From the sequence record PZ445529.1: DNA of 43,663 nt; one strand, 5' to 3'. A program made the position numbers and the translations under genes. The DNA is from a phage. Below, piece after piece: positions 1-43,663 of the stretch. The notes under the pieces were generated by a model, which did no database searches, was not told the DNA's origin, and was given only the letters and a program-made list of their open reading frames with translations. Each line of letters starts with the position of its first letter. Within the stretch, counting starts at the first letter, position 1.

Positions 1-121
1 GGGGTGCTGTCCCGCTGTCCCGATCGGCTAAACCCCGCGGCAGCACTGGTGGGGACGGGGTGCTGTCCCGCTTTGTCCCGCCCCTTGTTTGTCCCGCTTT
101 TTGTCCCGCTTAGTTTATGCA
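1..121. repeat. 3' part of copy A of a 169-bp dispersed element; six GTCCCG iteron cores (mostly TGTCCCGC) and a 15-bp direct repeat ggggtgctgtcccgc at 1-15 and 57-71
   Basis: 1-121 is identical to 27667-27787; with 43616-43663 it reconstitutes the full element found intact at 27619-27787. Confidence 0.9.
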
Positions 122-159
122 GTTTTATTGCATAACTATTCAATATATTTACACTACAC

Positions 160-207
160 GGCAACCAATGCGACCAGCTAAAAACACTCGAAATGGCAAC
201 CAATGCG
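160..207. repeat. two copies of 13-bp motif CGCATTGGTTGCC (reverse orientation) at 160-172 and 195-207; a third forward copy lies at 43540-43552
   Basis: Exact 13-mers read directly; they flank element copy A in inverted orientation, just 3' of the primase/helicase gene. Confidence 0.8.
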
Positions 208-215
208 CGCAACAT

Positions 216-2480
216 TTAATCTTTTAAATCATCATCGGTCGCAGAAAGCGTGATGGGTATACTCGTTTTAATGACAATATTCGACGACCCGTAGATGGCC
301 CCGGTGTGCGGATCGGTATAAAAACCGAGCACGCCGCGCTCGACCATATCGTCGATTGCCTTCGTCGATGTGCCACCTTTCGCAAGCCCAGCCTGGCGGA
401 CAATTGCCGATTTACTGAATCCGGTATGGTCCGGGTTATCTTCCATCAGTTTTTCCAGTGCCGCATAAAGCACTTTCTCTTTTTCGTTGCGCGGTCCGGC
501 GGCGTTTTCTTCCTTAACTGCGGCTTTGCCAGCGGCCTTCGCCTGTTCGATGGCGAACGGTGCCAGGGCGACCGGTACGAGGTAAAGAGTCTCGTCGCGT
601 GGCGTGGATGCGATCGGCTTGACGTCCCAACCGGCAACCACATCGCCGAAGTCTGGCCCGGCGCTGGTGGACTGGTGGGCTTCGAACGCTTCGGACTTGC
701 GGAGATCTACCTTAACTTTGCACTTAAGCAGGACGAATCCGCGCGGCGCTTGCTTGATGCCGTTACGCGCCTTTTCGTGATACAGGTTCAATTGTCCGGG
801 CTGGTTGTCGTCCGGTTGTTCCAGGAAGAACGCGGAATCGACAGCACCATGAAGCGCGCCGGACCCGCGAGGCGTTCTGCTGCCGTTTGCACCTTTAGCC
901 GGGTGGTGGATGACGCCCGCACTGCCGCCTGTATTTTCCGCAATGGCCTTCAGCGCCTTGACCACTTCGCCCATATCGCTGGCGTTGTTCTCGTCGAACG
1001 GTTTAGCATCGGCGGACCGCAGCGCAACAGTCTGGTTGAGTGAGTCGAACGCCACCAGGCCAACCGGTTCGCCGTTAGCGGTGCGGTTGATAAAGCTGAT
1101 AACTTCGCGCAAGCCCGACTTGCTGGTGATATCCCAGCCGCGTGATTGCAGGTCAATAATGTGCAGCTTGTCCAGGTCGTGCTCGTATTTGATCTGCAAT
1201 GCTTCCTTACGCTGGTTGGAGGCTTCGCCACCTTCCGCGTCGAAATAGAAGCAATGGGACTGGACGACCTTCGCACCGCCAAACGGGATACCCGCGGCAA
1301 CCGCACCCATCTGCCCCAGCACGTAGAACGATTTACCGATGTTCGACTCACCCGCCATGTACCAGGTCGATTTAAAGTTAATCAACCCCTCGATGATCGG
1401 GTCGTGCTTACTGAACAGCGCAACCGGCTCGTTATCCAGATCCGCATCGGTGCACACGCCGTATTCTTCGCCGTCGCCAACCGCATCAACAATATGTTCA
1501 TATAAGGATTCGACTTCCTCGTCGTCCAGCCCTGGGAGGATGGCGGCGATTTGCTTACGTGACATGTTGTGCGGCTCGACGTTCAGGTGGTCCGGTATCC
1601 CGATAAGACGTAGCGCCAGGTGCTGGTGTCTGTTCAGCTCAGAGCAACACTCGTTGCCGGTGTGCATACACTTGAAACGGATCTCGCCATCCTTGACCAT
1701 AATAGCCGTCGACCCTTCGCCGCTGTGCAGATGTTCGTTCGGGCACGGCACTTCATAACCGCGACCGGAGGATAACTCCTCGAATCCTGCTTGGAAGCAC
1801 CAGTCCAGAATGCCGTCAGCCACTGCGTCGTCGCCCTGGGTAAGCTCGCGGCGTACTTCCTCTTTCTCCACTCCCAGCCTGTCAGCCCGGCGAAGCAGAC
1901 GACGCACACTGGCGCGCTTTCCGTAGTGGCACTTAATGACAGACTGCTGGTGTGGTAGGTACATCAGGCGGTTTGTGTCTTTGGTGCAATCGTCGAAGTC
2001 CACATCAGACAGGCCCAGTTGGTCTAACAGCGCGTACTGGACGCGGCCCAGGTCTTCCGCCGGTACGGGCTTGTCTGTGAGCACAAGGAAACGTGCGCAA
2101 CGCGTGCCGCCTTTCAGCGGGTGGCGGTCGCCGGTTGTTGTATGGAATACGTGCTCCAGCCCCGCATCGATGAAAGCCTTACGGCAGCGGCGCAAGGTGC
2201 GAGTGTCGGTACGGTCGATATCAAAGAACAGGATCGAGCGGTCCACCGCGCTGGTCTTACGGCGTAGGCCGTCACTGGTATATGCCACGATGCCATCGGC
2301 CTTGCGCTTGCGGCGCGCATACTCGGCTTTATCCTCGGTCTTGTTGATATGCACTGATGATATTTCTTTCGCATCATTGATAAATTCGAAAAATTCATCA
2401 GTTGTCATCTGGAAGTTTTCCGCCCTGGCTTTTTCGCCTTTTTTAGCGGGTCTTGTTACAGCGAATTTAATTAAGCTCAT
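216..2480 (-). CDS. bifunctional DNA primase/helicase (primase-type N-terminal region with Cys/His zinc motif, RecA-like P-loop helicase C-terminal region)
   Basis: 754-aa ORF; zinc motif CPNEHLHSGEGS...KCMHTGNECC; Walker A GESNIGKS; VIHHPAKG motif typical of RepA/DnaB-like phage helicases; stop 11 nt after the upstream HTH gene. Confidence 0.8.
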   Translation of the reverse strand: MSLIKFAVTRPAKKGEKARAENFQMTTDEFFEFINDAKEISSVHINKTEDKAEYARRKRKADGIVAYTSDGLRRKTSAVDRSILFFDIDRTDTRTLRRCRKAFIDAGLEHVFHTTTGDRHPLKGGTRCARFLVLTDKPVPAEDLGRVQYALLDQLGLSDVDFDDCTKDTNRLMYLPHQQSVIKCHYGKRASVRRLLRRADRLGVEKEEVRRELTQGDDAVADGILDWCFQAGFEELSSGRGYEVPCPNEHLHSGEGSTAIMVKDGEIRFKCMHTGNECCSELNRHQHLALRLIGIPDHLNVEPHNMSRKQIAAILPGLDDEEVESLYEHIVDAVGDGEEYGVCTDADLDNEPVALFSKHDPIIEGLINFKSTWYMAGESNIGKSFYVLGQMGAVAAGIPFGGAKVVQSHCFYFDAEGGEASNQRKEALQIKYEHDLDKLHIIDLQSRGWDITSKSGLREVISFINRTANGEPVGLVAFDSLNQTVALRSADAKPFDENNASDMGEVVKALKAIAENTGGSAGVIHHPAKGANGSRTPRGSGALHGAVDSAFFLEQPDDNQPGQLNLYHEKARNGIKQAPRGFVLLKCKVKVDLRKSEAFEAHQSTSAGPDFGDVVAGWDVKPIASTPRDETLYLVPVALAPFAIEQAKAAGKAAVKEENAAGPRNEKEKVLYAALEKLMEDNPDHTGFSKSAIVRQAGLAKGGTSTKAIDDMVERGVLGFYTDPHTGAIYGSSNIVIKTSIPITLSATDDDLKD

Positions 2481-3025: not shown

Positions 3026-3221
3026 TCCCCCCGTCGACAGGATGCAGGACGCAAACTGGAGAGGGGCAACGCAGGGGCCGGATCGAAGTGTCAGGATTCC
3101 CAACCGTGATTATATAACCCGGTCCACTACCCGAACGGGAGAACGCGCAACCGGGCAATATGTTAAGGCCACCGACGAAGTTAACTGCCGACACCTAAAC
3201 TTAACCAATCGGAGATATACC

Positions 3222-3728
3222 ATGTTTGAGCAAATCGTAAACCTGATCACTCGCGGCGTAGTAGCACTGGAAACCATCGCAAAGCATTATGAAACTGTTG
3301 GCGCTGCCGTTGGTAAGCAGGAAGACAAGAAGCCGTCTAAGGCCAAAAAAGAAGATGACGACGATGCCGCCGAAGACGAAAAACCGGCTAAAGCTAAAAA
3401 AGCACCGGCGAAAGGTAAGGCCAAAAAAGAAGTCGTAGAAGATGACGACGAAGACGCCGAAGACGAAAAACCGGCTAAGGCTAAAAAAGCACCGGCGAAC
3501 GGCAAAGGTAAGAAAGATGCTGATCCGCTGGCGGAGATGCGCGACGAAATCAAACAGTATGCCGCGATTATCGCCGGTGGTGATGACGACGATGCGAACG
3601 ACGAATTCGACGACCTGCTGGAGTCGTTCGAGATCAAATCAATCGCCAAGCTGGAAGATGACGACGTCGAAGACTTCCACACAGAGTTAAAAGAAATCGT
3701 CGAAACCTATTTCGAACTGGAAGATTAA
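3222..3728 (+). CDS. highly acidic low-complexity protein with alternating D/E and K/A-rich stretches; first gene of the early operon
   Basis: ATG at 3222 with RBS GGAG; 168 aa; contains in-frame 87-bp tandem repeat; upstream part of ORF 3042-3728 judged 5' UTR. Confidence 0.65.
   Translation: MFEQIVNLITRGVVALETIAKHYETVGAAVGKQEDKKPSKAKKEDDDDAAEDEKPAKAKKAPAKGKAKKEVVEDDDEDAEDEKPAKAKKAPANGKGKKDADPLAEMRDEIKQYAAIIAGGDDDDANDEFDDLLESFEIKSIAKLEDDDVEDFHTELKEIVETYFELED
3351..3518. repeat. in-frame tandem repeat (87-bp unit, about 2 copies) encoding EDDD(D/E)A(A/E)DEKPAKAKKAPA(K/N)GK
   Basis: Near-identical units starting 3351 and 3438. Confidence 0.8.
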
Positions 3729-5872: not shown

Positions 5873-5961
5873 CCGCTTAGGCACAACCAAGTAGATTAGC
5901 AACCAAGCCGGACGGGGTGGCTTCCAATAACCCCGATACATGTGAAATGAGGAATTGGAAA

Positions 5962-6690
5962 ATGGCTAAAGTCAACCTGAAAAATGTGCGCGTATGCTTC
6001 CTGAAAATTTGGGAACGTGACACCCCTAAACAGGATGGACAAAAACCGGCATACCGTGCCGTGATTCTTCTGGATAAAGAAGATCCGCAGGTGGACAAAG
6101 TGGAAGCGGCAGCGCGCGCAGTGCTCACCGACAAGCTGAAATCCGAGAAGAATGCCGATAAGTGGATGGACCGCCACTACGCCCAGGATTCGAAGGAATG
6201 CGCAGTTCGTGACGGTGACGAGCGCGACGAAGTATCCGAAGAATTCGAAGGCATGTTGTACATCAACGCTAAATCGTTCAAACAGCCAAACATTCAAACG
6301 TCACTCGGCGAGAAGCAGACCGAACAGGGTCTGACCGTAGAAGGCGACGAGATCGAAGGCCAGGAGATCTACTCCGGTTGTTATTGCAACGTGTCCCTTG
6401 ATATCTGGGCGTGGAACAACACCAACGGCAAGGGACTCGGTGCTGGCTTGCTGGGTTTACGCTTCCGTGATGACGGTGAAGCCTTCGGCGGTGGCGGGTC
6501 TTCTTGCTCCGATGAAGACCTGGACAACGACGACGAAGACGAAGCACCGCGCAAGTCCAAGAAATCCAAGCGCCGCGATGACGACGATGAGGAAGATGAA
6601 AAACCTCGCAAACGCCGCAAGTCCCGCGATGACGAAGATGAGGACGAAGACGACGAAGACGAAGCACCACGCAAACGTCGCCGCCGTTAA
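5962..6690 (+). CDS. putative single-stranded DNA-binding protein (DUF2815-like) with acidic/basic repeat tail
   Basis: N-terminus MAKVNLKNVRVCF... characteristic of the phage SSB family paired with Cas4-like exonucleases; start chosen at ATG 5962 (RBS GAGG); C-terminal DE/KR tail. Confidence 0.6.
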   Translation: MAKVNLKNVRVCFLKIWERDTPKQDGQKPAYRAVILLDKEDPQVDKVEAAARAVLTDKLKSEKNADKWMDRHYAQDSKECAVRDGDERDEVSEEFEGMLYINAKSFKQPNIQTSLGEKQTEQGLTVEGDEIEGQEIYSGCYCNVSLDIWAWNNTNGKGLGAGLLGLRFRDDGEAFGGGGSSCSDEDLDNDDEDEAPRKSKKSKRRDDDDEEDEKPRKRRKSRDDEDEDEDDEDEAPRKRRRR

Positions 6691-12722: not shown

Positions 12723-12727
12723 ATTGG

Positions 12728-15820: not shown

Positions 15821-17389
15821 TTATTTACCTTCCAGCTTTTCCACTTTCCGCAACAGGTGAACGAAGGCGGCACACAGATCCATCAACAGCACGTTACTAT
15901 CTAGTGACAGCACATCGTCCGTATACCCGATTTCCTTTCGGTCGACTACAACTTCGTTGCCTTCCTCGTCCACCCCCTTGATATCCTCATAAATGGCATA
16001 ACCCGGCAGCAAGTGCACATATTCTGGGTCAATCCTTGCCAGATCCTGTGCGATAAGGCCGTATCGCTGTACGTCAGACTCCTTATACTTGAACATTGCC
16101 GGAAGCCATTGACGAACGCGGTTGTAGCTTTCCTCGCCGTCAGTGTATTGGATTTCTTTTTTAAGGTCGCGGTCCGATAGCGCCGCTTTCTGGAACTCGT
16201 TAACCGAAGGGTTGCTGCTGTTACCACTAATCAGCCTGCCGTCCGGTAGGAAGCGGAATAAAGCCTCCGCATAACCATCCTTCCACACGTGGACACGGTA
16301 GTCCGATAAGTGGGCATCGCCGCCCCTGACCAAGCCAGATCGTGTCCAATCCGTGTACCACTTATGCATCGTCTGCCCGACCCAGCTATCCATCCCGAAA
16401 GACGCGTTTGATATAATCAAACCGTTTCTTTCGACATCATTGAAGGTTAGCGATTCGCCTCCGTTCAGACGTAATGTTGCGTGTTTAACGATACTATCAT
16501 CACCAACGCCAAGATTAGCGCGTGCCGCCGATTTATCTGCGACGTCTGCCAGGTTCTGCGACTTCTTCATGAATTGCGTAGGGTCGATCGCGTTTTTGAA
16601 GTCTTCGGCTTCGTCCCGATACCCCTGCGCGGCATCGCGGGCGGCTTGCGCGTCCCTCTTCGCTGTATTGGCCTGATCTCGAATAACGCCGGTGTCAGTC
16701 TTGATCTGGTTCGTCTGCGTCTTGATGGCCTGCGTATCCGTCTTGATCTGGTTCGTCTGCGTCTTGATGGCCTGCGTATCCGTCTTGATCTGGTTCGTCT
16801 GCGTCTTGATGGCCTGCGTATCAGTTTTGATCTGGTTCGTCTGCGTCTTGATGGTATTGGTGGCGTCGCGAATACCCGCCGTCTCGGTCTTGAAGCCTTC
16901 TGCCTCATTGCGAAATCCTTGCGCGGCTGCTTCCGATGCGGCGGCTTGTTGTTGCAGGTCGCGCATTTCCACTGGGTCGATCTGTTTCATCAACTGCGAC
17001 AGATAGCCCCATGACATACCCTGCATGACTTGCCCGTTCGGCAGCGTTACGGTGATTTCTTCAGCGTCGCCGAAGATTGCACGCCAGTTGTTTTCATCGG
17101 CGATCATCAAACGAAATGCTTTCTGTGCCTGGACGGTAACGCCCATCGTAGTCAATGACATGGTGTCACGTTTGATGCCGTCCCAGGCTAGGCCGGTTGC
17201 CGTCGGGCCGTCGAACGGCAGCACCAGCGTAAGCGCCGTGTTACTTTTGATTGATGCGATCGCCACGGTGTAAGGAACTTGCCCTACCACCAGCGTTAAG
17301 AAGTCGCCAGCTTTAAACGCGGTAAACGTTGTGCCGACCCCTACTACCGCCTTGCTATTGTTCGTTACGGATAGCGTACCCGCTGCCAT
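15821..17389 (-). CDS. tail fibre with coiled repeat region and C-terminal intramolecular chaperone (peptidase S74-like) domain
   Basis: C-terminal SDRDLKKEI...YGLIAQDL...LLMDLCAAFVHLLRKVEKLEGK resembles autoproteolytic chaperone domains; start set at ATG 17389 (RBS GAGGA) rather than 17416. Confidence 0.65.
   Translation of the reverse strand: MAAGTLSVTNNSKAVVGVGTTFTAFKAGDFLTLVVGQVPYTVAIASIKSNTALTLVLPFDGPTATGLAWDGIKRDTMSLTTMGVTVQAQKAFRLMIADENNWRAIFGDAEEITVTLPNGQVMQGMSWGYLSQLMKQIDPVEMRDLQQQAAASEAAAQGFRNEAEGFKTETAGIRDATNTIKTQTNQIKTDTQAIKTQTNQIKTDTQAIKTQTNQIKTDTQAIKTQTNQIKTDTGVIRDQANTAKRDAQAARDAAQGYRDEAEDFKNAIDPTQFMKKSQNLADVADKSAARANLGVGDDSIVKHATLRLNGGESLTFNDVERNGLIISNASFGMDSWVGQTMHKWYTDWTRSGLVRGGDAHLSDYRVHVWKDGYAEALFRFLPDGRLISGNSSNPSVNEFQKAALSDRDLKKEIQYTDGEESYNRVRQWLPAMFKYKESDVQRYGLIAQDLARIDPEYVHLLPGYAIYEDIKGVDEEGNEVVVDRKEIGYTDDVLSLDSNVLLMDLCAAFVHLLRKVEKLEGK
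16698..16865. repeat. in-frame 42-bp tandem repeat (about 4 copies, 21-bp sub-period) encoding TDTQAIKTQTNQIK heptad repeats
   Basis: Unit gtcttgatctggttcgtctgcgtcttgatggcctgcgtatcc repeated head-to-tail. Confidence 0.85.
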
Positions 17390-17410
17390 AGCTAAATCCT
17401 CGTAAATTGG

Positions 17411-17439
17411 TTGCAATCCAGGTTGAGCGGTGTAATACT
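17411..17439 (+). promoter_or_regulatory. promoter-like element with ATTGGTTGCAA motif (-35 TTGCAA, -10-like TAATAC) upstream of the lipoprotein gene
   Basis: cgtaaattggttgcaatccaggttgagcggtgtaatact. Confidence 0.4.
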
Positions 17440-27551: not shown

Positions 27552-27618
27552 TATGCAGTCCCCTTTTTATGCAGTTGCCGATTGTCATTGTATCAGCGAT
27601 TTTAAAACAATCCTTATT

Positions 27619-27787
27619 CAGTCTCAGACGAGGGGGGCCACTGACCCCCGTCTAGTCTGAAAGACTGGGGTGCTGTCCCGCTGTCCCGATCGGCTAAACC
27701 CCGCGGCAGCACTGGTGGGGACGGGGTGCTGTCCCGCTTTGTCCCGCCCCTTGTTTGTCCCGCTTTTTGTCCCGCTTAGTTTATGCA
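27619..27787. repeat. copy B of the 169-bp element (palindrome + GTCCCG iterons), in the gap between the GT chaperone stop and the tape measure start
   Basis: Exact match to 43616-43663 + 1-121; followed at 27826-27857 by extra inverted GGGACA/GTCCCG copies (gggacaaaacgggacgtcccgatctgtcccgc). Confidence 0.9.
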
Positions 27788-27856
27788 ATAAATTCGAATA
27801 GGTATGCACATTTCAGGGGTGGGACAAAACGGGACGTCCCGATCTGTCCCGCTGCA

Positions 27857-33387: not shown

Positions 33388-33416
33388 TTGCAATCCTCAT
33401 ATTGGTTGCATATATT
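33388..33416 (+). promoter_or_regulatory. sigma70-like promoter (-35 TTGCAA, 17-bp spacer, -10 TATATT) with two ATTGGTTGCA copies
   Basis: cttgcaatcctcatattggttgcatatattggttgcacaccaaca; the 21-mer tatattggttgcacaccaaca recurs on the minus strand at 43413-43433. Confidence 0.55.
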
Positions 33417-33445
33417 GGTTGCACACCAACAACGAGGACACACTA

Positions 33446-37276: not shown

Positions 37277-38662
37277 TTAGTAGAAGTCTACAGTTGGAAC
37301 AACGGCGATAGGGCGAATCACCGGGAACAGGTGCGCGATTGGATAGCCTGCGGCATCGTTCATGTGGTCCACACCGGCGGTTTTATCCGGCTCGCCTTTC
37401 TTCAGGTCGTAAACCTGCTGTTCCAGACATTTCGCTAGTGTAGGGCATTTATCCAGGTTGACAAAATACTGGCGCACGCCCTTCGAGTTGCACATCATCG
37501 TATTCATCGCGATCAATCGGTCTTTCACAGGCGGGTTAACGCTGTCGTACTCCACCTCGAAGCCCGCGTCTTCCAGTTGTGCGATATCTGACGACGATGC
37601 GTTGACAGTCTTGCGGGACTTGCCGCTGCTATCCGGGTAAACGACAACCCGACCGGCAGCACAATGATCGGGGTAGCGCGCCTCGATCGCCTCAATCATA
37701 GCCGGGGTGTCAAACAGGTCCACAAATTCATCCACCGCGTGAATCTCGTCGCGGAACTCCTTGTTCTCGGTGACTCGCTGCCGTCTGACGTACACAACCG
37801 CCGCCATCTTCGTGACGTTAAAGTCCATACCGATAATCAGCGTGTCGTCCGGCTGCACTTCTTCGGTGCTGGCGTTCTCCTCGCGATTAAACATCTTGTA
37901 CACCGCGCCCGACGTAAGGTTAACAAACAGGCCGTTCAGGTACGCATCAATCAGGTTAGCTGGGTACTGACTGCGGAGCGTGTCGATAAAGTCCGCCGGT
38001 AAATGGGGGTTGTCCGTGGTCTTCGCCCGGATCAGGCGTTTCTGGTTGTCTTTCTCCACCTCGAAAATTTGGTACATCGCCCGGTAGCCTTCAGGCGTCG
38101 ATACGATGACGAACTGGCGGACGAAGCCAGCACGCAGACGACCGAGCAATTTGTGATACGCCGCCAGCGCGACGTCTTGTTTCGTGGTGTCGAACTCGTC
38201 GGCAACAATCCACGCGGCGTTGACCCCGATCAGGCGGGTATAGTTCTCCATTGATTCACAGATCACGCGGGTCCATTTGCCTTTTACCAGCACGTTGTAG
38301 ATCTTATCCTGCTTATTGAATTTCCACCGGAATCCAGCCTCGTCGAATGCCTTCTCCAGTTCCGGATACATGATTTTAACCAGGAGGGGAATCGTCGGTT
38401 CTGTAACGATGCCGTCATGACCGGGGTTCAGGGTTAAAAGCTGGATGACCTTACGCGCAGCGACCCACGACTTTCCACCGCCGAAGCCGGAACACAGGCC
38501 GAGGATTTTAGTCTTTGTGTCGCGCAGTAGTTCAACCTGGTGCGGCAAGCAATCAGGCTGGTAAAGGCGGACGGCCTGCGCAACGCGTGTCGGGCGTGGC
38601 GGTCGGTTGCGCTTTGCGATCGCGCGTTCCAGTGCGCGGTGTTCTGCCGCATAGTTACGCAT
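37277..38662 (-). CDS. terminase large subunit
   Basis: 461 aa; P-loop-like LGLCSGFGGGKS, acidic IVADEFD; start overlaps small-subunit stop (TAATG). Confidence 0.8.
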   Translation of the reverse strand: MRNYAAEHRALERAIAKRNRPPRPTRVAQAVRLYQPDCLPHQVELLRDTKTKILGLCSGFGGGKSWVAARKVIQLLTLNPGHDGIVTEPTIPLLVKIMYPELEKAFDEAGFRWKFNKQDKIYNVLVKGKWTRVICESMENYTRLIGVNAAWIVADEFDTTKQDVALAAYHKLLGRLRAGFVRQFVIVSTPEGYRAMYQIFEVEKDNQKRLIRAKTTDNPHLPADFIDTLRSQYPANLIDAYLNGLFVNLTSGAVYKMFNREENASTEEVQPDDTLIIGMDFNVTKMAAVVYVRRQRVTENKEFRDEIHAVDEFVDLFDTPAMIEAIEARYPDHCAAGRVVVYPDSSGKSRKTVNASSSDIAQLEDAGFEVEYDSVNPPVKDRLIAMNTMMCNSKGVRQYFVNLDKCPTLAKCLEQQVYDLKKGEPDKTAGVDHMNDAAGYPIAHLFPVIRPIAVVPTVDFY

Positions 38663-39234
38663 TATTCACCCTGGCCTTTGCCGGAAGGTTCCACTACGAC
38701 GTCGCCGTTATCATCTTCGTCGTCATCCAGCGGCACATCGTCGCGGACGCCGTGGTTTGCTTTAAGCAGGAATGTTGCGAAGCCCGCCGCGATGGTCACG
38801 CCGCCAGCTTCCATCAGGAAGGTTTTTTGTAACTCCATTGCGTCCGCCATCGCCTCAGCGAACTCCTCATGCGCACGCGCCCAGCGATACAGGCAAGCTA
38901 CGCCCACGCCGATTTCCGCGGCAAATCGACCGAAGGTTGGCATTTTGTTGCGGGGGATTACTTGCGCAGCGCCTTTAGCGGAGTAGTTGACCTGCCAGGC
39001 GTCGGCGTCGGCGAAATAGCGACGAAGCTGGTCGCAGTAAACGGATCGGTAGTCAGTAGGGCGTCCACATTTGCCGCCTTTACGACGCTTTCCGTACTCG
39101 ATCTCCGGTCCGAGATTAGTATGCTCGGTTTGCTCGCCTGGTTTACGGCGCGGGGTTACCGCCACTCGTCCGTCCAGTTTGGCGCGTCGGCCCTTAACTT
39201 TGATTTCTGCCATGATATAAGCCCTTTTGTTCAT
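38662..39234 (-). CDS. terminase small subunit
   Basis: HTH-like FGRFAAEIGVGVACLYRWARAHEEF; start uncertain (ATG 39234 or 39213; longer GTG-initiated ORF to 39312 seems unlikely). Confidence 0.6.
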   Translation of the reverse strand: MNKRAYIMAEIKVKGRRAKLDGRVAVTPRRKPGEQTEHTNLGPEIEYGKRRKGGKCGRPTDYRSVYCDQLRRYFADADAWQVNYSAKGAAQVIPRNKMPTFGRFAAEIGVGVACLYRWARAHEEFAEAMADAMELQKTFLMEAGGVTIAAGFATFLLKANHGVRDDVPLDDDEDDNGDVVVEPSGKGQGE

Positions 39235-39343
39235 ATGCGCCGACCATCGGCAACATAGGAGACGGCCCTGCCATCTAACGGGGATTATAACAGGCACAAA
39301 AAAGCCCACCAAATCGGCAGGCTGGGAGGGGTACGGGTTGCCG

Positions 39344-43093: not shown

Positions 43094-43399
43094 TTATTTC
43101 GCAAGCTGGGCGAATAGTTCGCGCTGGGCTTTAATCCGGGCGACGTTTGTCACTGCCGTCTCACCGATCCCGAAGCGATACGCCAGGCGCTCACGGGCAA
43201 ATGCCTTGGCATATTCGTGAATTGCCATACGCAACGGCTTCAGGTCATCCAGGCTGGCGTCCATGCGGTAGAGCGCGTCACGAATTGATTGGTGCGCCAG
43301 TACCGCAATCTGCAGCGCCTGGTCTACGTTGCCGTTCAGTGCTTTCGCTTCTTCCAGCTTTGCCACGGCCAGGGTGTAATTCCAGATAATTGCTTTCAT
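43094..43399 (-). CDS. hypothetical protein (101 aa), first gene of the minus-strand operon leading into the lysis cassette
   Basis: ATG with RBS AGGA; promoter immediately upstream. Confidence 0.5.
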   Translation of the reverse strand: MKAIIWNYTLAVAKLEEAKALNGNVDQALQIAVLAHQSIRDALYRMDASLDDLKPLRMAIHEYAKAFARERLAYRFGIGETAVTNVARIKAQRELFAQLAK

Positions 43400-43427
43400 T
43401 GTTCAGTCCTCATGTTGGTGTGCAACC

Positions 43428-43456
43428 AATATAGCAAGGTGCCAGGCCGGATGCAA
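43428..43456 (-). promoter_or_regulatory. sigma70-like promoter (-35 TTGCAT, 17-bp spacer, -10 TATATT) with two ATTGGTTGCA copies
   Basis: Reverse complement gives ttgcat-ccggcctggcaccttgc-tatatt; shares an identical 21-mer with the promoter at 33388-33416. Confidence 0.55.
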
Positions 43457-43539
43457 CCAATATTAATCACGCGCATGAAAAAGTTGATCGCTATCTGCTG
43501 AGACTGCAAACCGCATTTTTCACTCAACATAATACAACC

Positions 43540-43552
43540 CGCATTGGTTGCC
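43540..43552. repeat. forward copy of CGCATTGGTTGCC motif
   Basis: Exact match to the reverse complement of 160-172 and 195-207. Confidence 0.8.
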
Positions 43553-43615
43553 TAGTTCCGCGACGACCGCAATCCGCAACATGCTGCCGTGTATTTTGCA
43601 ATCCAGGATTTTATG

Positions 43616-43663
43616 CAGTCTCAGACGAGGGGGGCCACTGACCCCCGTCTAGTCTGAAAGACT
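43616..43663. repeat. 5' part of copy A of the 169-bp element (imperfect GC-rich palindrome cagtctcagacgaggggggccactgacccccgtctagtctgaaagact)
   Basis: 43616-43663 is identical to 27619-27666; window end joins window start seamlessly as in copy B. Confidence 0.9.

What the first reader, a model, noticed from the sequence alone, without database searches (positions are those of the whole stretch)
1..215. Candidate replication origin 3' of the primase/helicase gene: iterons, AT-rich tract and flanking inverted CGCATTGGTTGCC motifs
Immediately downstream of the primase/helicase stop (216) lie two exact copies of CGCATTGGTTGCC (160-172, 195-207), an AT-rich stretch (about 110-160) and the GTCCCG iteron block (1-121). 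A third copy of the 13-mer sits in opposite orientation on the other side of the element at 43540-43552. Iterons plus an AT-rich unwinding region next to an initiator gene is the usual origin architecture for primase-initiated replicons.
Basis: partly seen in the sequence, partly recalled or inferred. Interest (0 to 1): 0.6.

Follow-up and report, generated by a model that had tools for sequence, protein, structure and literature searches.

The report
Duplicated iteron-type phage replication origin
The short repeats beside this coliphage's primase/helicase gene look like a real replication origin read by that enzyme's own DNA-binding tail, and a second copy lies 16 kb away; this is a familiar kind of element in a phage group where it has not been tested.

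Summary
Six (A/G)CGGGACA repeats (window 8-109), a 76% A+T tract (110-159) and three CGCATTGGTTGCC boxes lie just 3' of the primase/helicase gene of a Dhillonvirus (HK578/SO-1-like coliphage).

- The window ends join, so the element continues into a conserved double hairpin at 43616-43663.
- A 174-nt block (hairpin plus all six repeats) is duplicated at 27614-27787, between the tail chaperone and tape-measure genes.
- The 13-mer belongs to a dispersed promoter-associated motif (13 copies genome-wide).
- The cassette is conserved across related phage lineages.

In seven lineages the repeat sequence differs, and over 35 repeat-bearing loci it tracks one-to-one with the start of the recognition helix of a C-terminal winged-helix domain of the primase/helicase. 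This holds even where the primase and helicase domains are 95-98% identical. Distant second copies, in Dhillonvirus and in a Klebsiella phage, carry the same repeat as the gene-proximal copy.

The protein is an AEP primase plus a RepA-like helicase plus a winged helix. I conclude, with confidence about 0.6, that this is an iteron-type origin recognised by the primase/helicase and present twice. Origin activity itself is inferred, not shown.

The parts
216..2480 (-). Primase/helicase gene (754 aa). Domains: AEP-fold primase about aa 1-205, Cys/His zinc motif about aa 245-280, RepA-like helicase aa 357-600, winged helix aa 664-740, acidic tail DDDLKD.
261..491 (-). Coding region of the C-terminal winged-helix domain (aa 664-740), the proposed iteron reader.
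195..207 (-). CGCATTGGTTGCC box 1.
   Evidence: Exact match. Conserved in Dhillonvirus copy B. Member of the dispersed ATTGGTTGC family.
160..172 (-). CGCATTGGTTGCC box 2.
110..159 (.). A+T-rich tract (76% A+T). It holds the GAATAGTTATGCA core, which is conserved across genera, and the inverted repeat TTATGCA-N7-TGCATAA (115-121 / 129-135). Proposed unwinding element.
   Evidence: Composition rank. Inverted repeat. The core is shared with Cornellvirus and five other lineages. The loop of the inverted repeat is flipped between genomes.
8..109 (-). Six direct 8-bp iterons, (A/G/T)CGGGACA on the minus strand. On the plus strand they are TGTCCCGN at 8, 16, 64, 74, 90 and 102.
   Evidence: In 34 aligned A and B copies the CGGGACA cores stay at least 94% conserved for five of the six (the fourth keeps CGGGAC) while the spacers vary.
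43616..43663 (.). Conserved double hairpin (AGTCT-TTC-AGACT plus the G/C-rich stem GACGGGGG...CCCCCCTCGTC). It runs on to window position 1.
   Evidence: An equivalent double hairpin with a different sequence follows the iterons in all seven repeat-bearing lineages and folds equally well on both strands.
43582..43591 (-). CACGGCAGCA motif. It is conserved downstream of the hairpin in most lineages.
   Evidence: It occurs once in the window.
43540..43552 (+). Third CGCATTGGTTGCC box, in inverted orientation.
43428..43456 (-). Sigma-70-like promoter TTGCAT-N17-TATATT for the 101-aa ORF (43094-43399). It is built from two ATTGGTTGCA motifs. It marks the end of the non-coding region and is probably not part of the origin.
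   Evidence: Sequence reading. The same 21-nt promoter and leader sequence is found at 33411-33431.
27614..27787 (-). Second copy of the element ('region A'). Hairpin at 27619-27667 and six iterons at 27674, 27682, 27730, 27740, 27756 and 27768. It differs from 43611-43663 plus 1-121 at 1 of 174 nt.
   Evidence: Present in all Dhillonvirus genomes examined. It lies between the tail assembly chaperone and the tape-measure gene.
27776..27852 (.). The A+T block of copy A (27776-27815), plus extra iterons that include the perfect palindrome CGGGACGTCCCG (27830-27841) and TGTCCCGC (27845-27852).
   Evidence: (I6).

Best explanation
The non-coding cassette after the primase/helicase gene is an iteron-type origin of replication, and the phage carries it twice.

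Cassette order, read in the direction of transcription: A+T-rich tract with a small inverted repeat, then six CGGGACA iterons, then a G/C-rich double hairpin. Copy B is at 43582-43663 plus 1-215. Copy A is at 27614-27852.

Proposed mechanism:
1. The C-terminal winged-helix domain of the phage primase/helicase binds the iterons. This step is inferred from covariation.
2. Clustering several protomers there helps load the RepA-like hexameric helicase onto the adjacent A+T-rich tract. This step is inferred by analogy with P4 alpha, SaPI Rep and RSF1010.
3. The N-terminal AEP primase makes the first primers, possibly using the extruded hairpins as single-strand initiation signals. This step is speculative.
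4. The phage's own family-A DNA polymerase takes over.

The second copy is either a second origin, as with SPP1 oriL/oriR, or a cis-acting enhancer that binds the same protein, as with P4 crr.

The CGCATTGGTTGCC boxes are promoter-family motifs. They are not shown to belong to the origin.
For: 1. Position. A cluster of 5-7 copies of one 7-mer lies within about 200 nt after the primase/helicase stop codon in Dhillonvirus, Cornellvirus, a Klebsiella-phage lineage and four further lineages whose enzymes are 37-50% identical. The order of parts is the same in all: A+T core GAATAGTTATGCA, then iterons, then double hairpin, then CACGGCAGCA.

2. Footprint pattern. In 34 Dhillonvirus copies the iterons are nearly invariant while the spacers vary.

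3. Covariation. Seven iteron types map one-to-one onto seven motifs at the start of the recognition helix, over the 35 repeat-bearing loci. Two pairs have 95-98% identical primase and helicase domains but only 44-52% identical winged helices, and their iterons differ. These are L080/L072 and L078/L075, and the DNA breakpoint lies about 340 nt before the stop in both.

4. The match cannot be explained by physical linkage alone. Copy A, 16 kb away, carries the same iteron as copy B. So does the second cluster of Klebsiella phage VLCpiS11a, 30 kb from its first, even though the spacers have diverged.

5. It is about 96% identical in L006 and L072, whose iterons differ, and in Dhillonvirus it is replaced by an unrelated protein.

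6. Protein anatomy. AEP primase fold with RSF1010 RepB' among the top hits, RepA-like AAA_25 helicase, and a C-terminal winged helix resembling the Orc1/Cdc6 and MarR types.

7. The 110-159 tract is among the most A+T-rich 50-mers of the genome.

8. Copies A and B form separate orthologous lineages across the genus: A-A 89%, B-B 86%, A-B 79%. Both have therefore been kept since before the genus radiated.
Against: - No replication assay, footprint or marker-frequency data exist for any of these phages in the literature I could search.
- GC skew follows the direction of transcription and gives no independent origin signal.
- Kagunavirus and Jerseyvirus, and one 43-45% lineage (L065-69, L073), have the winged helix but no detectable iteron cluster right after the gene. 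The association is therefore not universal, or their sites lie elsewhere.
- The locus is also the boundary between the early and late gene blocks, so a transcriptional role would sit at the same place.
- The winged-helix fold is generic. The best Foldseek E-value is 4e-3, and the solved P4 origin-binding domain was not among the listed hits.
- A second origin inside the tail operon has no obvious rationale.
Confidence: 0.62

Rival explanations
1. The cassette is a transcriptional control element at the early/late boundary. The repeats would be operators for a phage regulator, or for the primase/helicase acting as an autoregulator or roadblock. The hairpin would be a terminator or attenuator that gates read-through into the lysis and morphogenesis genes (copy B) and the tail genes (copy A).
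For: - Both copies lie in the transcribed orientation inside long minus-strand gene blocks, upstream of late genes.
- Copy B is followed by a strong sigma-70-like promoter.
- A weak promoter-like match overlaps the 3' side of the hairpin in copy A.
- One GenBank record carries a software-called 'terminator' inside the iteron array.
Against: - No T-tract follows the hairpin, and the terminator scan found nothing.
- The hairpins fold equally well on both strands, so nothing points to an RNA-strand-specific structure.
- No Rfam family matches.
- Six to seven unevenly spaced direct repeats next to an A+T-rich tract are atypical for operators.
- The repeats co-vary with the DNA-binding domain of a replicative helicase rather than with the neighbouring HTH regulator.
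- In the Klebsiella phage the second copy sits at a different place in the late region.
Confidence: 0.15
2. The repeats are binding sites for a different phage protein, and their match to the primase/helicase winged helix is a by-product of co-transfer of neighbouring DNA. Candidates are the 109-aa HTH_23 protein at 2491-2820 or the 101-aa ORF downstream.
For: - The winged-helix coding region lies no more than 350 nt from the iterons, so a single recombination event would move both.
- The 109-aa protein has a sigma-70 region 4-like HTH.
Against: - The upstream HTH is nearly identical in two lineages with different iterons and is non-homologous in Dhillonvirus.
- Distal copies 16-30 kb away keep the iteron of the proximal copy.
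- Breakpoints in two independent swap pairs fall at the helicase/winged-helix domain boundary rather than between the gene and the iterons.
Confidence: 0.08
3. The element is a packaging signal (pac or cos, with terminase binding sites), and the window begins here because this is a physical genome end.
For: - The window starts inside the repeat block.
- G/C-rich direct repeats resemble terminase small-subunit sites in some phages.
Against: - In relatives the sequence runs continuously across 43663/1.
- Dhillonvirus genomes assemble as circles, and PhageTerm predicts headful packaging (PMC9022532, PMC13348001).
- The single cos claim gives ATCTTAAGGG, which is absent from the window.
- Two direct copies 16 kb apart would cut a cos genome in two.
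- The terminase genes are at 37277-39312, far from both copies.
- An assembler breaking at a 174-nt repeat explains the window start.
Confidence: 0.03
4. The cassette is a selfish or neutral repeated sequence, such as a duplicated intergenic segment or a recombination hot spot, with no role in replication.
For: - There are two copies per genome.
- There is clear gene conversion in this genome: 174 nt with one mismatch, against 72-86% identity between A and B in other genomes.
- Phage 'rolling' has tandem amplification of units in copy A.
Against: - Both copies have been retained as separate orthologous lineages across the genus, with selective conservation of the iterons and the hairpin.
- The architecture is conserved across lineages whose proteins are only 37-50% identical.
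- The repeat type matches a protein domain one-to-one.
Confidence: 0.05

Closest known systems
Satellite phage P4 ori and crr with the alpha protein
   Same: - One polypeptide combines primase, helicase and a C-terminal winged-helix origin-binding domain.
- Short (8-bp) iterons are recognised by that domain (as summarised in PMC4234260).
- From my own knowledge of the P4 literature (Ziegelin and Lanka 1995): iterons occur at two separate loci, ori and crr, and both bind alpha.
   Different: - P4 alpha has a Toprim (DnaG-type) primase and an SF3 helicase. Here the primase has an AEP fold and the helicase is RepA-like (AAA_25).
- There is no sequence or top-ranked structural match to the P4 origin-binding domain.
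- The iteron sequences are unrelated.
- Whether copy A is needed in cis, as crr is, is unknown.
IncQ plasmid RSF1010 oriV with RepA, RepB' and RepC
   Same: - From my own knowledge: the RSF1010 origin is built of direct iterons, G/C-rich and A+T-rich segments, and palindromic hairpins (ssiA/ssiB) used by the primase.
   Different: - Here the three functions are fused in one protein, and the iteron reader is a winged helix rather than a separate RepC.
- The iterons are 8 bp rather than 20 bp.
- Whether the hairpin is a single-strand initiation site is untested.
- This is a virulent phage with its own DNA polymerase.
Bacillus phage SPP1 oriL and oriR (bound by G38P)
   Same: From my own knowledge: two copies of an initiator-binding repeat region with an adjacent A+T-rich segment, far apart on the genome. 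One lies at the initiator gene and one in the late region.
   Different: - The SPP1 initiator is a separate origin-binding protein that recruits a loader and a DnaB-type helicase.
- oriL lies inside the initiator gene.
- There is no sequence relationship.
Staphylococcal pathogenicity island (SaPI) ori with Pri/Rep
   Same: From my own knowledge (Ubeda et al.): the origin lies immediately 3' of the helicase/initiator gene, consists of short iterons and an A+T-rich region, and has island-specific Rep-iteron specificity.
   Different: - The Rep family is different and the primase is a separate protein.
- There is a single copy.
- The iterons flank the A+T region symmetrically.
Lambdoid ori with the O protein
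   Same: - Iterons, an A+T-rich tract and a palindrome.
- The initiator DNA-binding domain and its iterons are exchanged together as a specificity module among related phages (my own knowledge; the iteron-O relation is noted in PMC11447400).
   Different: - Lambda ori lies inside the O gene.
- O is not a helicase or primase and relies on host DnaB and DnaG.
Archaeal plasmid pRN1 origin with ORF904
   Same: - An AEP prim-pol plus helicase plus winged-helix replication protein.
- The origin lies downstream of its gene and contains an essential stem-loop (PMC4234260).
   Different: - ORF904 has an SF3 helicase.
- The pRN1 origin lacks iterons.

Membership tests
Iteron-type replication origin (general class) | Cluster of at least 3 short repeats that could serve as initiator-binding sites. 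| tested here: met
   Six CGGGACA repeats in 102 nt. Simulations never exceed 3 GTCCCG in any 121 nt. The repeats are conserved and the spacers variable in 34 copies.
Iteron-type replication origin (general class) | Adjacent A+T-rich DNA-unwinding tract. | tested here: met
   110-159 is 76% A+T. Only 2 of 43,614 50-nt windows are as A+T-rich. Copy A has its own A+T block at 27776-27815.
Iteron-type replication origin (general class) | A cognate initiator encoded nearby whose DNA-binding domain matches the repeats. | tested here: met
   Indirect evidence only. The winged-helix motif corresponds one-to-one with the iteron type over the 35 repeat-bearing loci, there are two domain-swap pairs, and distal copies share the iteron. 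Physical binding has not been tested.
Iteron-type replication origin (general class) | Replication starts here, or the fragment confers replication. | not testable with these tools
   No experimental data were found. GC skew is uninformative.
P4 alpha / ori-crr system | Toprim primase plus SF3 helicase plus winged-helix origin-binding domain in one protein. | tested here: not met
   A winged helix is present. However, the primase has an AEP fold and the helicase is AAA_25/RepA-like. It works like P4 alpha but is not a member of that family.
P4 alpha / ori-crr system | Iterons at two separated cis sites. | tested here: met
   The copies are at 8-109 and 27674-27775, plus 27830-27852. The Klebsiella phage likewise has two clusters.
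IncQ (RSF1010) replicon | RepA-type helicase and RepB'-type AEP primase. | tested here: met
   [not shown]
IncQ (RSF1010) replicon | A separate RepC initiator, 20-bp iterons, and ssiA/ssiB sites used by the primase. | tested here: inconclusive
   There is no separate initiator, and the iterons are 8 bp. A conserved double hairpin that folds on both strands is present, but its use as a priming signal is untested.
cos/pac packaging site | A unique site at or near the physical genome end and the terminase genes. | tested here: not met
   There are two copies. The sequence is continuous across the junction in relatives. Headful packaging is reported. The terminase genes are at 37277-39312.
Intrinsic transcription terminator | G/C-rich stem-loop followed by a T-tract on the transcribed strand. 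| tested here: not met
   The hairpin is present, but no T-run follows it in Dhillonvirus. The scan found 0 sites.
Known structured RNA (Rfam) | Match to a curated covariance model. | tested here: not met
   No hit at gathering threshold in the window. In the relative L001, which spans the junction, the only hit was a chance-level one (radC, E=0.53).

The most novel reading that the evidence does not exclude
These siphoviruses use a single polypeptide that fuses the three IncQ-type replication functions: a RepB'-like AEP primase, a RepA-like helicase and an iteron-reading winged helix. It acts on a bipartite origin made of a gene-proximal cassette plus a distal one, which loop together or fire independently. 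The conserved double hairpin serves as a single-strand priming signal. The winged helix and its iterons form a portable specificity cassette that is swapped between otherwise near-identical replication genes. This creates replicon 'types' that prevent co-infecting relatives or satellites from hijacking each other's initiator.
Probability: 0.25. Interest if true: 0.6.

Novelty: new variant of a known kind. Interest (0 to 1): 0.5.

Why it matters
Dhillonviruses and their Guernseyvirinae relatives are common virulent coliphages and Salmonella phages. They are used in phage collections such as BASEL and in biocontrol work. I found no description of how they start DNA replication.

A defined origin with a predicted reader domain gives several things:
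- A direct handle for phage engineering, such as origin plasmids amplified on infection, or conditional replication.
- An explanation for the unexplained 300-bp non-coding insert in the middle of the tail operon.
- A natural set of seven matched winged-helix/iteron pairs. In some pairs the rest of the enzyme is 95-98% identical, which is close to a ready-made specificity-swap experiment.

It also documents a fusion of AEP primase, RepA-like helicase and winged helix that sits between the P4 alpha, pRN1 ORF904 and IncQ solutions to origin recognition.

Tried and rejected
- **GC and AT skew**. The skew changes sign near 3 kb and 16 kb, following gene orientation. It is not usable as origin evidence.
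- **cos or terminase-site reading.** Rejected because the junction is continuous in relatives, headful packaging is reported, there are two copies, and the reported cos sequence is absent.
- **Terminator reading of the hairpin.** There is no T-tract and the scan found 0 sites. The 'terminator' annotated in phage CS16 is in fact an inverted pair of iterons.
- **Structured RNA.** Rfam found nothing, and there is no strand asymmetry in folding energy.
- **PDB sequence searches** with the protein and with a family profile. Only a weak RepA hit and a spurious repeat-protein hit came back.
- **Homologue search with the C-terminal 126 aa alone.** It returned only 2 fragments. The full-length query was needed.
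- **P4 origin-binding domain.** I looked for it among the fold hits, and it was not listed.
- **Iteron clusters in Kagunavirus and Jerseyvirus loci and in L065-69/L073.** None lies next to the gene. L073 and L067 keep only the distal part of the cassette, about 1.6 kb downstream.
- **Literature searches** for an experimentally mapped origin in Dhillonvirus or Guernseyvirinae found none.
- **SO-1 GenBank note.** The SO-1 record (GQ502199) already flags 'region A' and 'region B' as similar repeat regions with a 'possible ...' function.

Full report
**What the window is**

The 43,663-bp window is a complete genome of a Dhillonvirus, the group of HK578-, SSL-2009a- and SO-1-like virulent coliphages. 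Its first 3 kb are 92-93% identical to more than 140 GenBank phages of that genus.

The window ends are artificial. In relatives the sequence runs without a break from 43663 into 1. Members of the genus assemble as circles and are predicted to package by the headful mechanism (PMC9022532 and PMC13348001).

The feature therefore sits in one 479-bp non-coding region, 43400-43663 plus 1-215. On one side is the stop codon of the 754-aa primase/helicase (216-2480, minus strand). On the other is the start of a 101-aa ORF (43094-43399, minus strand).

**Checking the observation**

- Three exact CGCATTGGTTGCC boxes.
- Six GTCCCG repeats, better described as 8-mers: TGTCCCGN on the plus strand at 8, 16, 64, 74, 90 and 102, or (A/G/T)CGGGACA in the direction of transcription.
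- An A+T-rich tract at 110-159. At 76% A+T it is matched by only 2 of 43,614 50-nt windows.

The clustering is far beyond chance. In 100 simulations no 121-nt window held more than 3 GTCCCG.

1. The repeat block continues across the junction into a conserved double hairpin, CAGTCTCAGACGAGGGGGGCCACTGACCCCCGTCTAGTCTGAAAGACT(G), at 43616-43663 and on to position 1.

2. The hairpin plus all six repeats are duplicated in direct orientation at 27614-27787, with one mismatch in 174 nt. This second copy lies in a roughly 300-bp non-coding gap between the tail assembly chaperone (Pfam Phage_TAC_4) and the tape-measure gene. It has its own A+T block and extra repeats, including the perfect palindrome CGGGACGTCCCG. 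The GenBank record of Sodalis phage SO-1 already annotates these two places as 'region A' and 'region B', repeat regions with mutual similarity and a 'possible ...' function that is truncated in the tool output.

3. The ATTGGTTGC core of the 13-mer occurs 13 times in the genome against a simulated mean of 0.44, always between the long ORFs. At 12723/12740, 33401/33414, 43422/43453 and 17406 it supplies a TTGCAT or TTGCAA -35 hexamer 16-17 nt from a TATATT or TAATAC -10. It is a promoter-associated family, and it is absent from copy A. I therefore do not count the boxes as defining parts of the element, although they are conserved in copy B across the genus.

**Conservation within the genus**

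I took both copies from 16 Dhillonvirus genomes: 14 IMG/VR contigs, phage 'rolling' and the window. Two further unpaired copies brought the alignment to 34 sequences.

The CGGGACA cores, the TGCATAAA that precedes them and the hairpin stems are at least 94% conserved. The spacers and the hairpin loop vary freely. That is the pattern expected of protein-binding sites.

A copies resemble each other (mean 89%), as do B copies (86%), more than A resembles B (79%). The duplication is therefore older than the genus, and both copies have been maintained.

Within a genome, A and B are 72-86% identical in 15 genomes but 95% in the window. The window's copy B has acquired the A-type central segment by gene conversion.

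**Conservation beyond the genus**

Using an alignment of primase/helicases, I retrieved 80 loci from viral contigs. In the 700 nt after the stop codon, one 7-mer recurs 5-7 times in each of these groups:

| Lineage | Repeat |
|---|---|
| Dhillonvirus | GCGGGACA |
| Klebsiella-phage lineage | TTGCGAG |
| Cornellvirus | GGGGAGA |
| L070, L078, L092 | TCCGACA |
| L071 | GGGATAA |
| phiEap-2-like lineage | CGGACAA |
| L093 | GGGGATG |

The order of parts is the same throughout:
- one or two repeats;
- an A+T core containing GAATAGTTATGCA, which is shared even between genera whose enzymes are only 43% identical;
- three to five direct repeats, often with inverted ones;
- a double hairpin whose sequence differs between lineages but whose shape is the same;
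- a CACGGCAGCA motif.

The hairpins fold equally well on either strand. They match no Rfam family and are not followed by a T-tract in Dhillonvirus.

Kagunavirus, Jerseyvirus and one further lineage lack a detectable cluster next to the gene.

**Who reads the repeats**

The protein has three recognisable parts.
- A RepA-like helicase, Pfam AAA_25.

Over the 35 repeat-bearing loci of the 41 examined, the residues at the turn and the start of the recognition helix fall into seven classes that correspond one-to-one with the seven repeat types. The remaining six loci form an eighth class with no adjacent cluster.

The rest of the protein does not follow this partition.
- L080 (GGGGAGA) and L072 (CGGACAA) are 95% and 97% identical in the primase and helicase domains but 44% in the winged helix.
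- L078 (TCCGACA) and L075 (CGGACAA) are 98%, 97% and 52% respectively.
- Pairs that share a repeat keep 66-84% identity in the winged helix even though the rest of the protein is more divergent.

In both swap pairs the DNA identity breaks about 340 nt before the stop codon, which is the domain boundary.

Physical linkage alone cannot explain the match. Distal copies carry the same repeat as the proximal one while their spacers have diverged. This holds for Dhillonvirus copy A, 16 kb away, and for the second TTGCGAG cluster of Klebsiella phage VLCpiS11a, 30 kb away and at a different position in the late region.

It is about 96% identical in two lineages with different repeats, and in Dhillonvirus it is replaced by an unrelated HTH_23 protein.

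**Interpretation**

The most economical reading is an iteron-type origin recognised by the primase/helicase itself.

- The winged helices bind the CGGGACA array. This is inferred from covariation.
- The helicase is loaded at the neighbouring A+T tract, and the AEP domain primes. This is inferred by analogy.
- The hairpins may act as single-strand initiation signals, as ssiA and ssiB do for RepB' in RSF1010. This is speculative.

The second copy is either a second origin, as in SPP1 oriL/oriR, or a crr-like auxiliary site, as in P4. These comparisons rest on my knowledge of that literature. The P4 alpha winged-helix/iteron relation and the pRN1 origin downstream of ORF904 are cited from PMC4234260.

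The element works like P4 alpha with ori and crr, but the enzyme is not a member of that family: it has an AEP primase rather than Toprim, and a RepA-like helicase rather than SF3. It shares its enzymatic toolkit with IncQ plasmids, but fuses the three functions and uses 8-bp iterons.

**Rivals**

- A transcriptional role at the early/late boundary cannot be excluded, because the locus is also that boundary. However, there is no terminator signature, no strand-specific structure, and the covariation is with a replication enzyme.
- A packaging site is very unlikely: there are two copies, packaging is headful, and the terminase genes are elsewhere.
- A functionless repeat is contradicted by selective conservation across lineages.

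**Limits**

Nothing here shows initiation of DNA synthesis. GC skew tracks transcription, and I found no experimental origin mapping for these phages.

My confidence is about 0.75 that the repeats are the cognate sites of the primase/helicase winged helix. It is about 0.6 that they function as origin(s).

**Verdict**

- The kind of element is familiar. The particular combination is an undescribed variant of moderate interest. That combination is a fused AEP primase/RepA-like helicase/winged-helix initiator, a portable winged-helix-plus-iteron specificity module, a conserved double hairpin, and a maintained second copy.

Noticed in passing
window 161, 196, 3010, 12723, 12740, 14644, 17406, 33401, 33414, 42888, 43422, 43453, 43543: The 9-mer ATTGGTTGC (either strand) occurs 13 times against a simulated mean of 0.44, always between the long ORFs. 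Several copies form TTGCAT/TTGCAA-N16-17-TATATT promoters, and an identical 21-nt promoter and leader sequence occurs at 33411-33431 and 43413-43433. This looks like a phage-specific extended -35 or regulator site. Cornellvirus has an analogous TGTTGGCTG(C/T) box at its origin cassette and its late promoter.
   Followed up: partly
window 115-135 (and the aligned position in other Dhillonvirus genomes, e.g. L012, L013): The 7-nt loop of the inverted repeat TTATGCA-N7-TGCATAA is reverse-complemented between genomes (GTTTTAT versus ATAAAAC). It is as if the palindrome had been flipped, which suggests the arms matter and the loop does not.
   Followed up: no
window 43611-43663 plus 1-121 versus 27614-27787: The two copies differ at 1 of 174 nt in this genome but are only 72-86% identical in 15 other genomes. 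Copy B here carries the A-type central segment, which indicates a recent gene conversion between sites 16 kb apart.
   Followed up: yes
L007 (phage 'rolling') 32330-32500: Copy A of this divergent Dhillonvirus holds three tandem units. Each has a palindromic iteron group (GCGGGAC..CGGGACGTCCCG..TGTCCCGC) followed by an A+T block with TGCATA motifs. The region can therefore expand.
   Followed up: no
L122 (Klebsiella phage VLCpiS11a) 5036-5280 and 35684-35899: An independent lineage also has two iteron clusters (TTGCGAG). The second lies between the spanin and head-morphogenesis genes rather than in the tail operon.
   Followed up: partly
window 219-236 (last six codons of the primase/helicase) and homologues in alignment A1: All homologues end in a conserved acidic tail (DDDLKD, EDDLEN, TEEDLE). 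It is reminiscent of the T7 gp4 C-terminal tail that contacts the DNA polymerase.
   Followed up: no
window 16650-16896, 3350-3517 and 6511-6674: There are in-frame tandem repeats of 21/42 nt inside the 531-aa minus-strand ORF (15821-17416). There are also acidic Asp/Glu-rich repeats in the 228-aa ORF (3042-3728) and in the ORF spanning 5917-6690.
   Followed up: no
L081 1-85; L073 6940-6990: A Kagunavirus contig begins with seven tandem copies of ACCTGTTACACC. L073 has six tandem GGCAGCAT units fused to the conserved CACGGCAGCA motif. These may be displaced or alternative initiator sites in lineages that lack a cluster next to the gene.
   Followed up: no
L005 1835-1862 (phage CS16, LR999870): The annotated 'terminator' in this GenBank record is an inverted pair of iterons (GCGGGAC...GTCCCGC) inside the repeat array. 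It is not the hairpin and not a terminator with a T-tract.
   Followed up: yes
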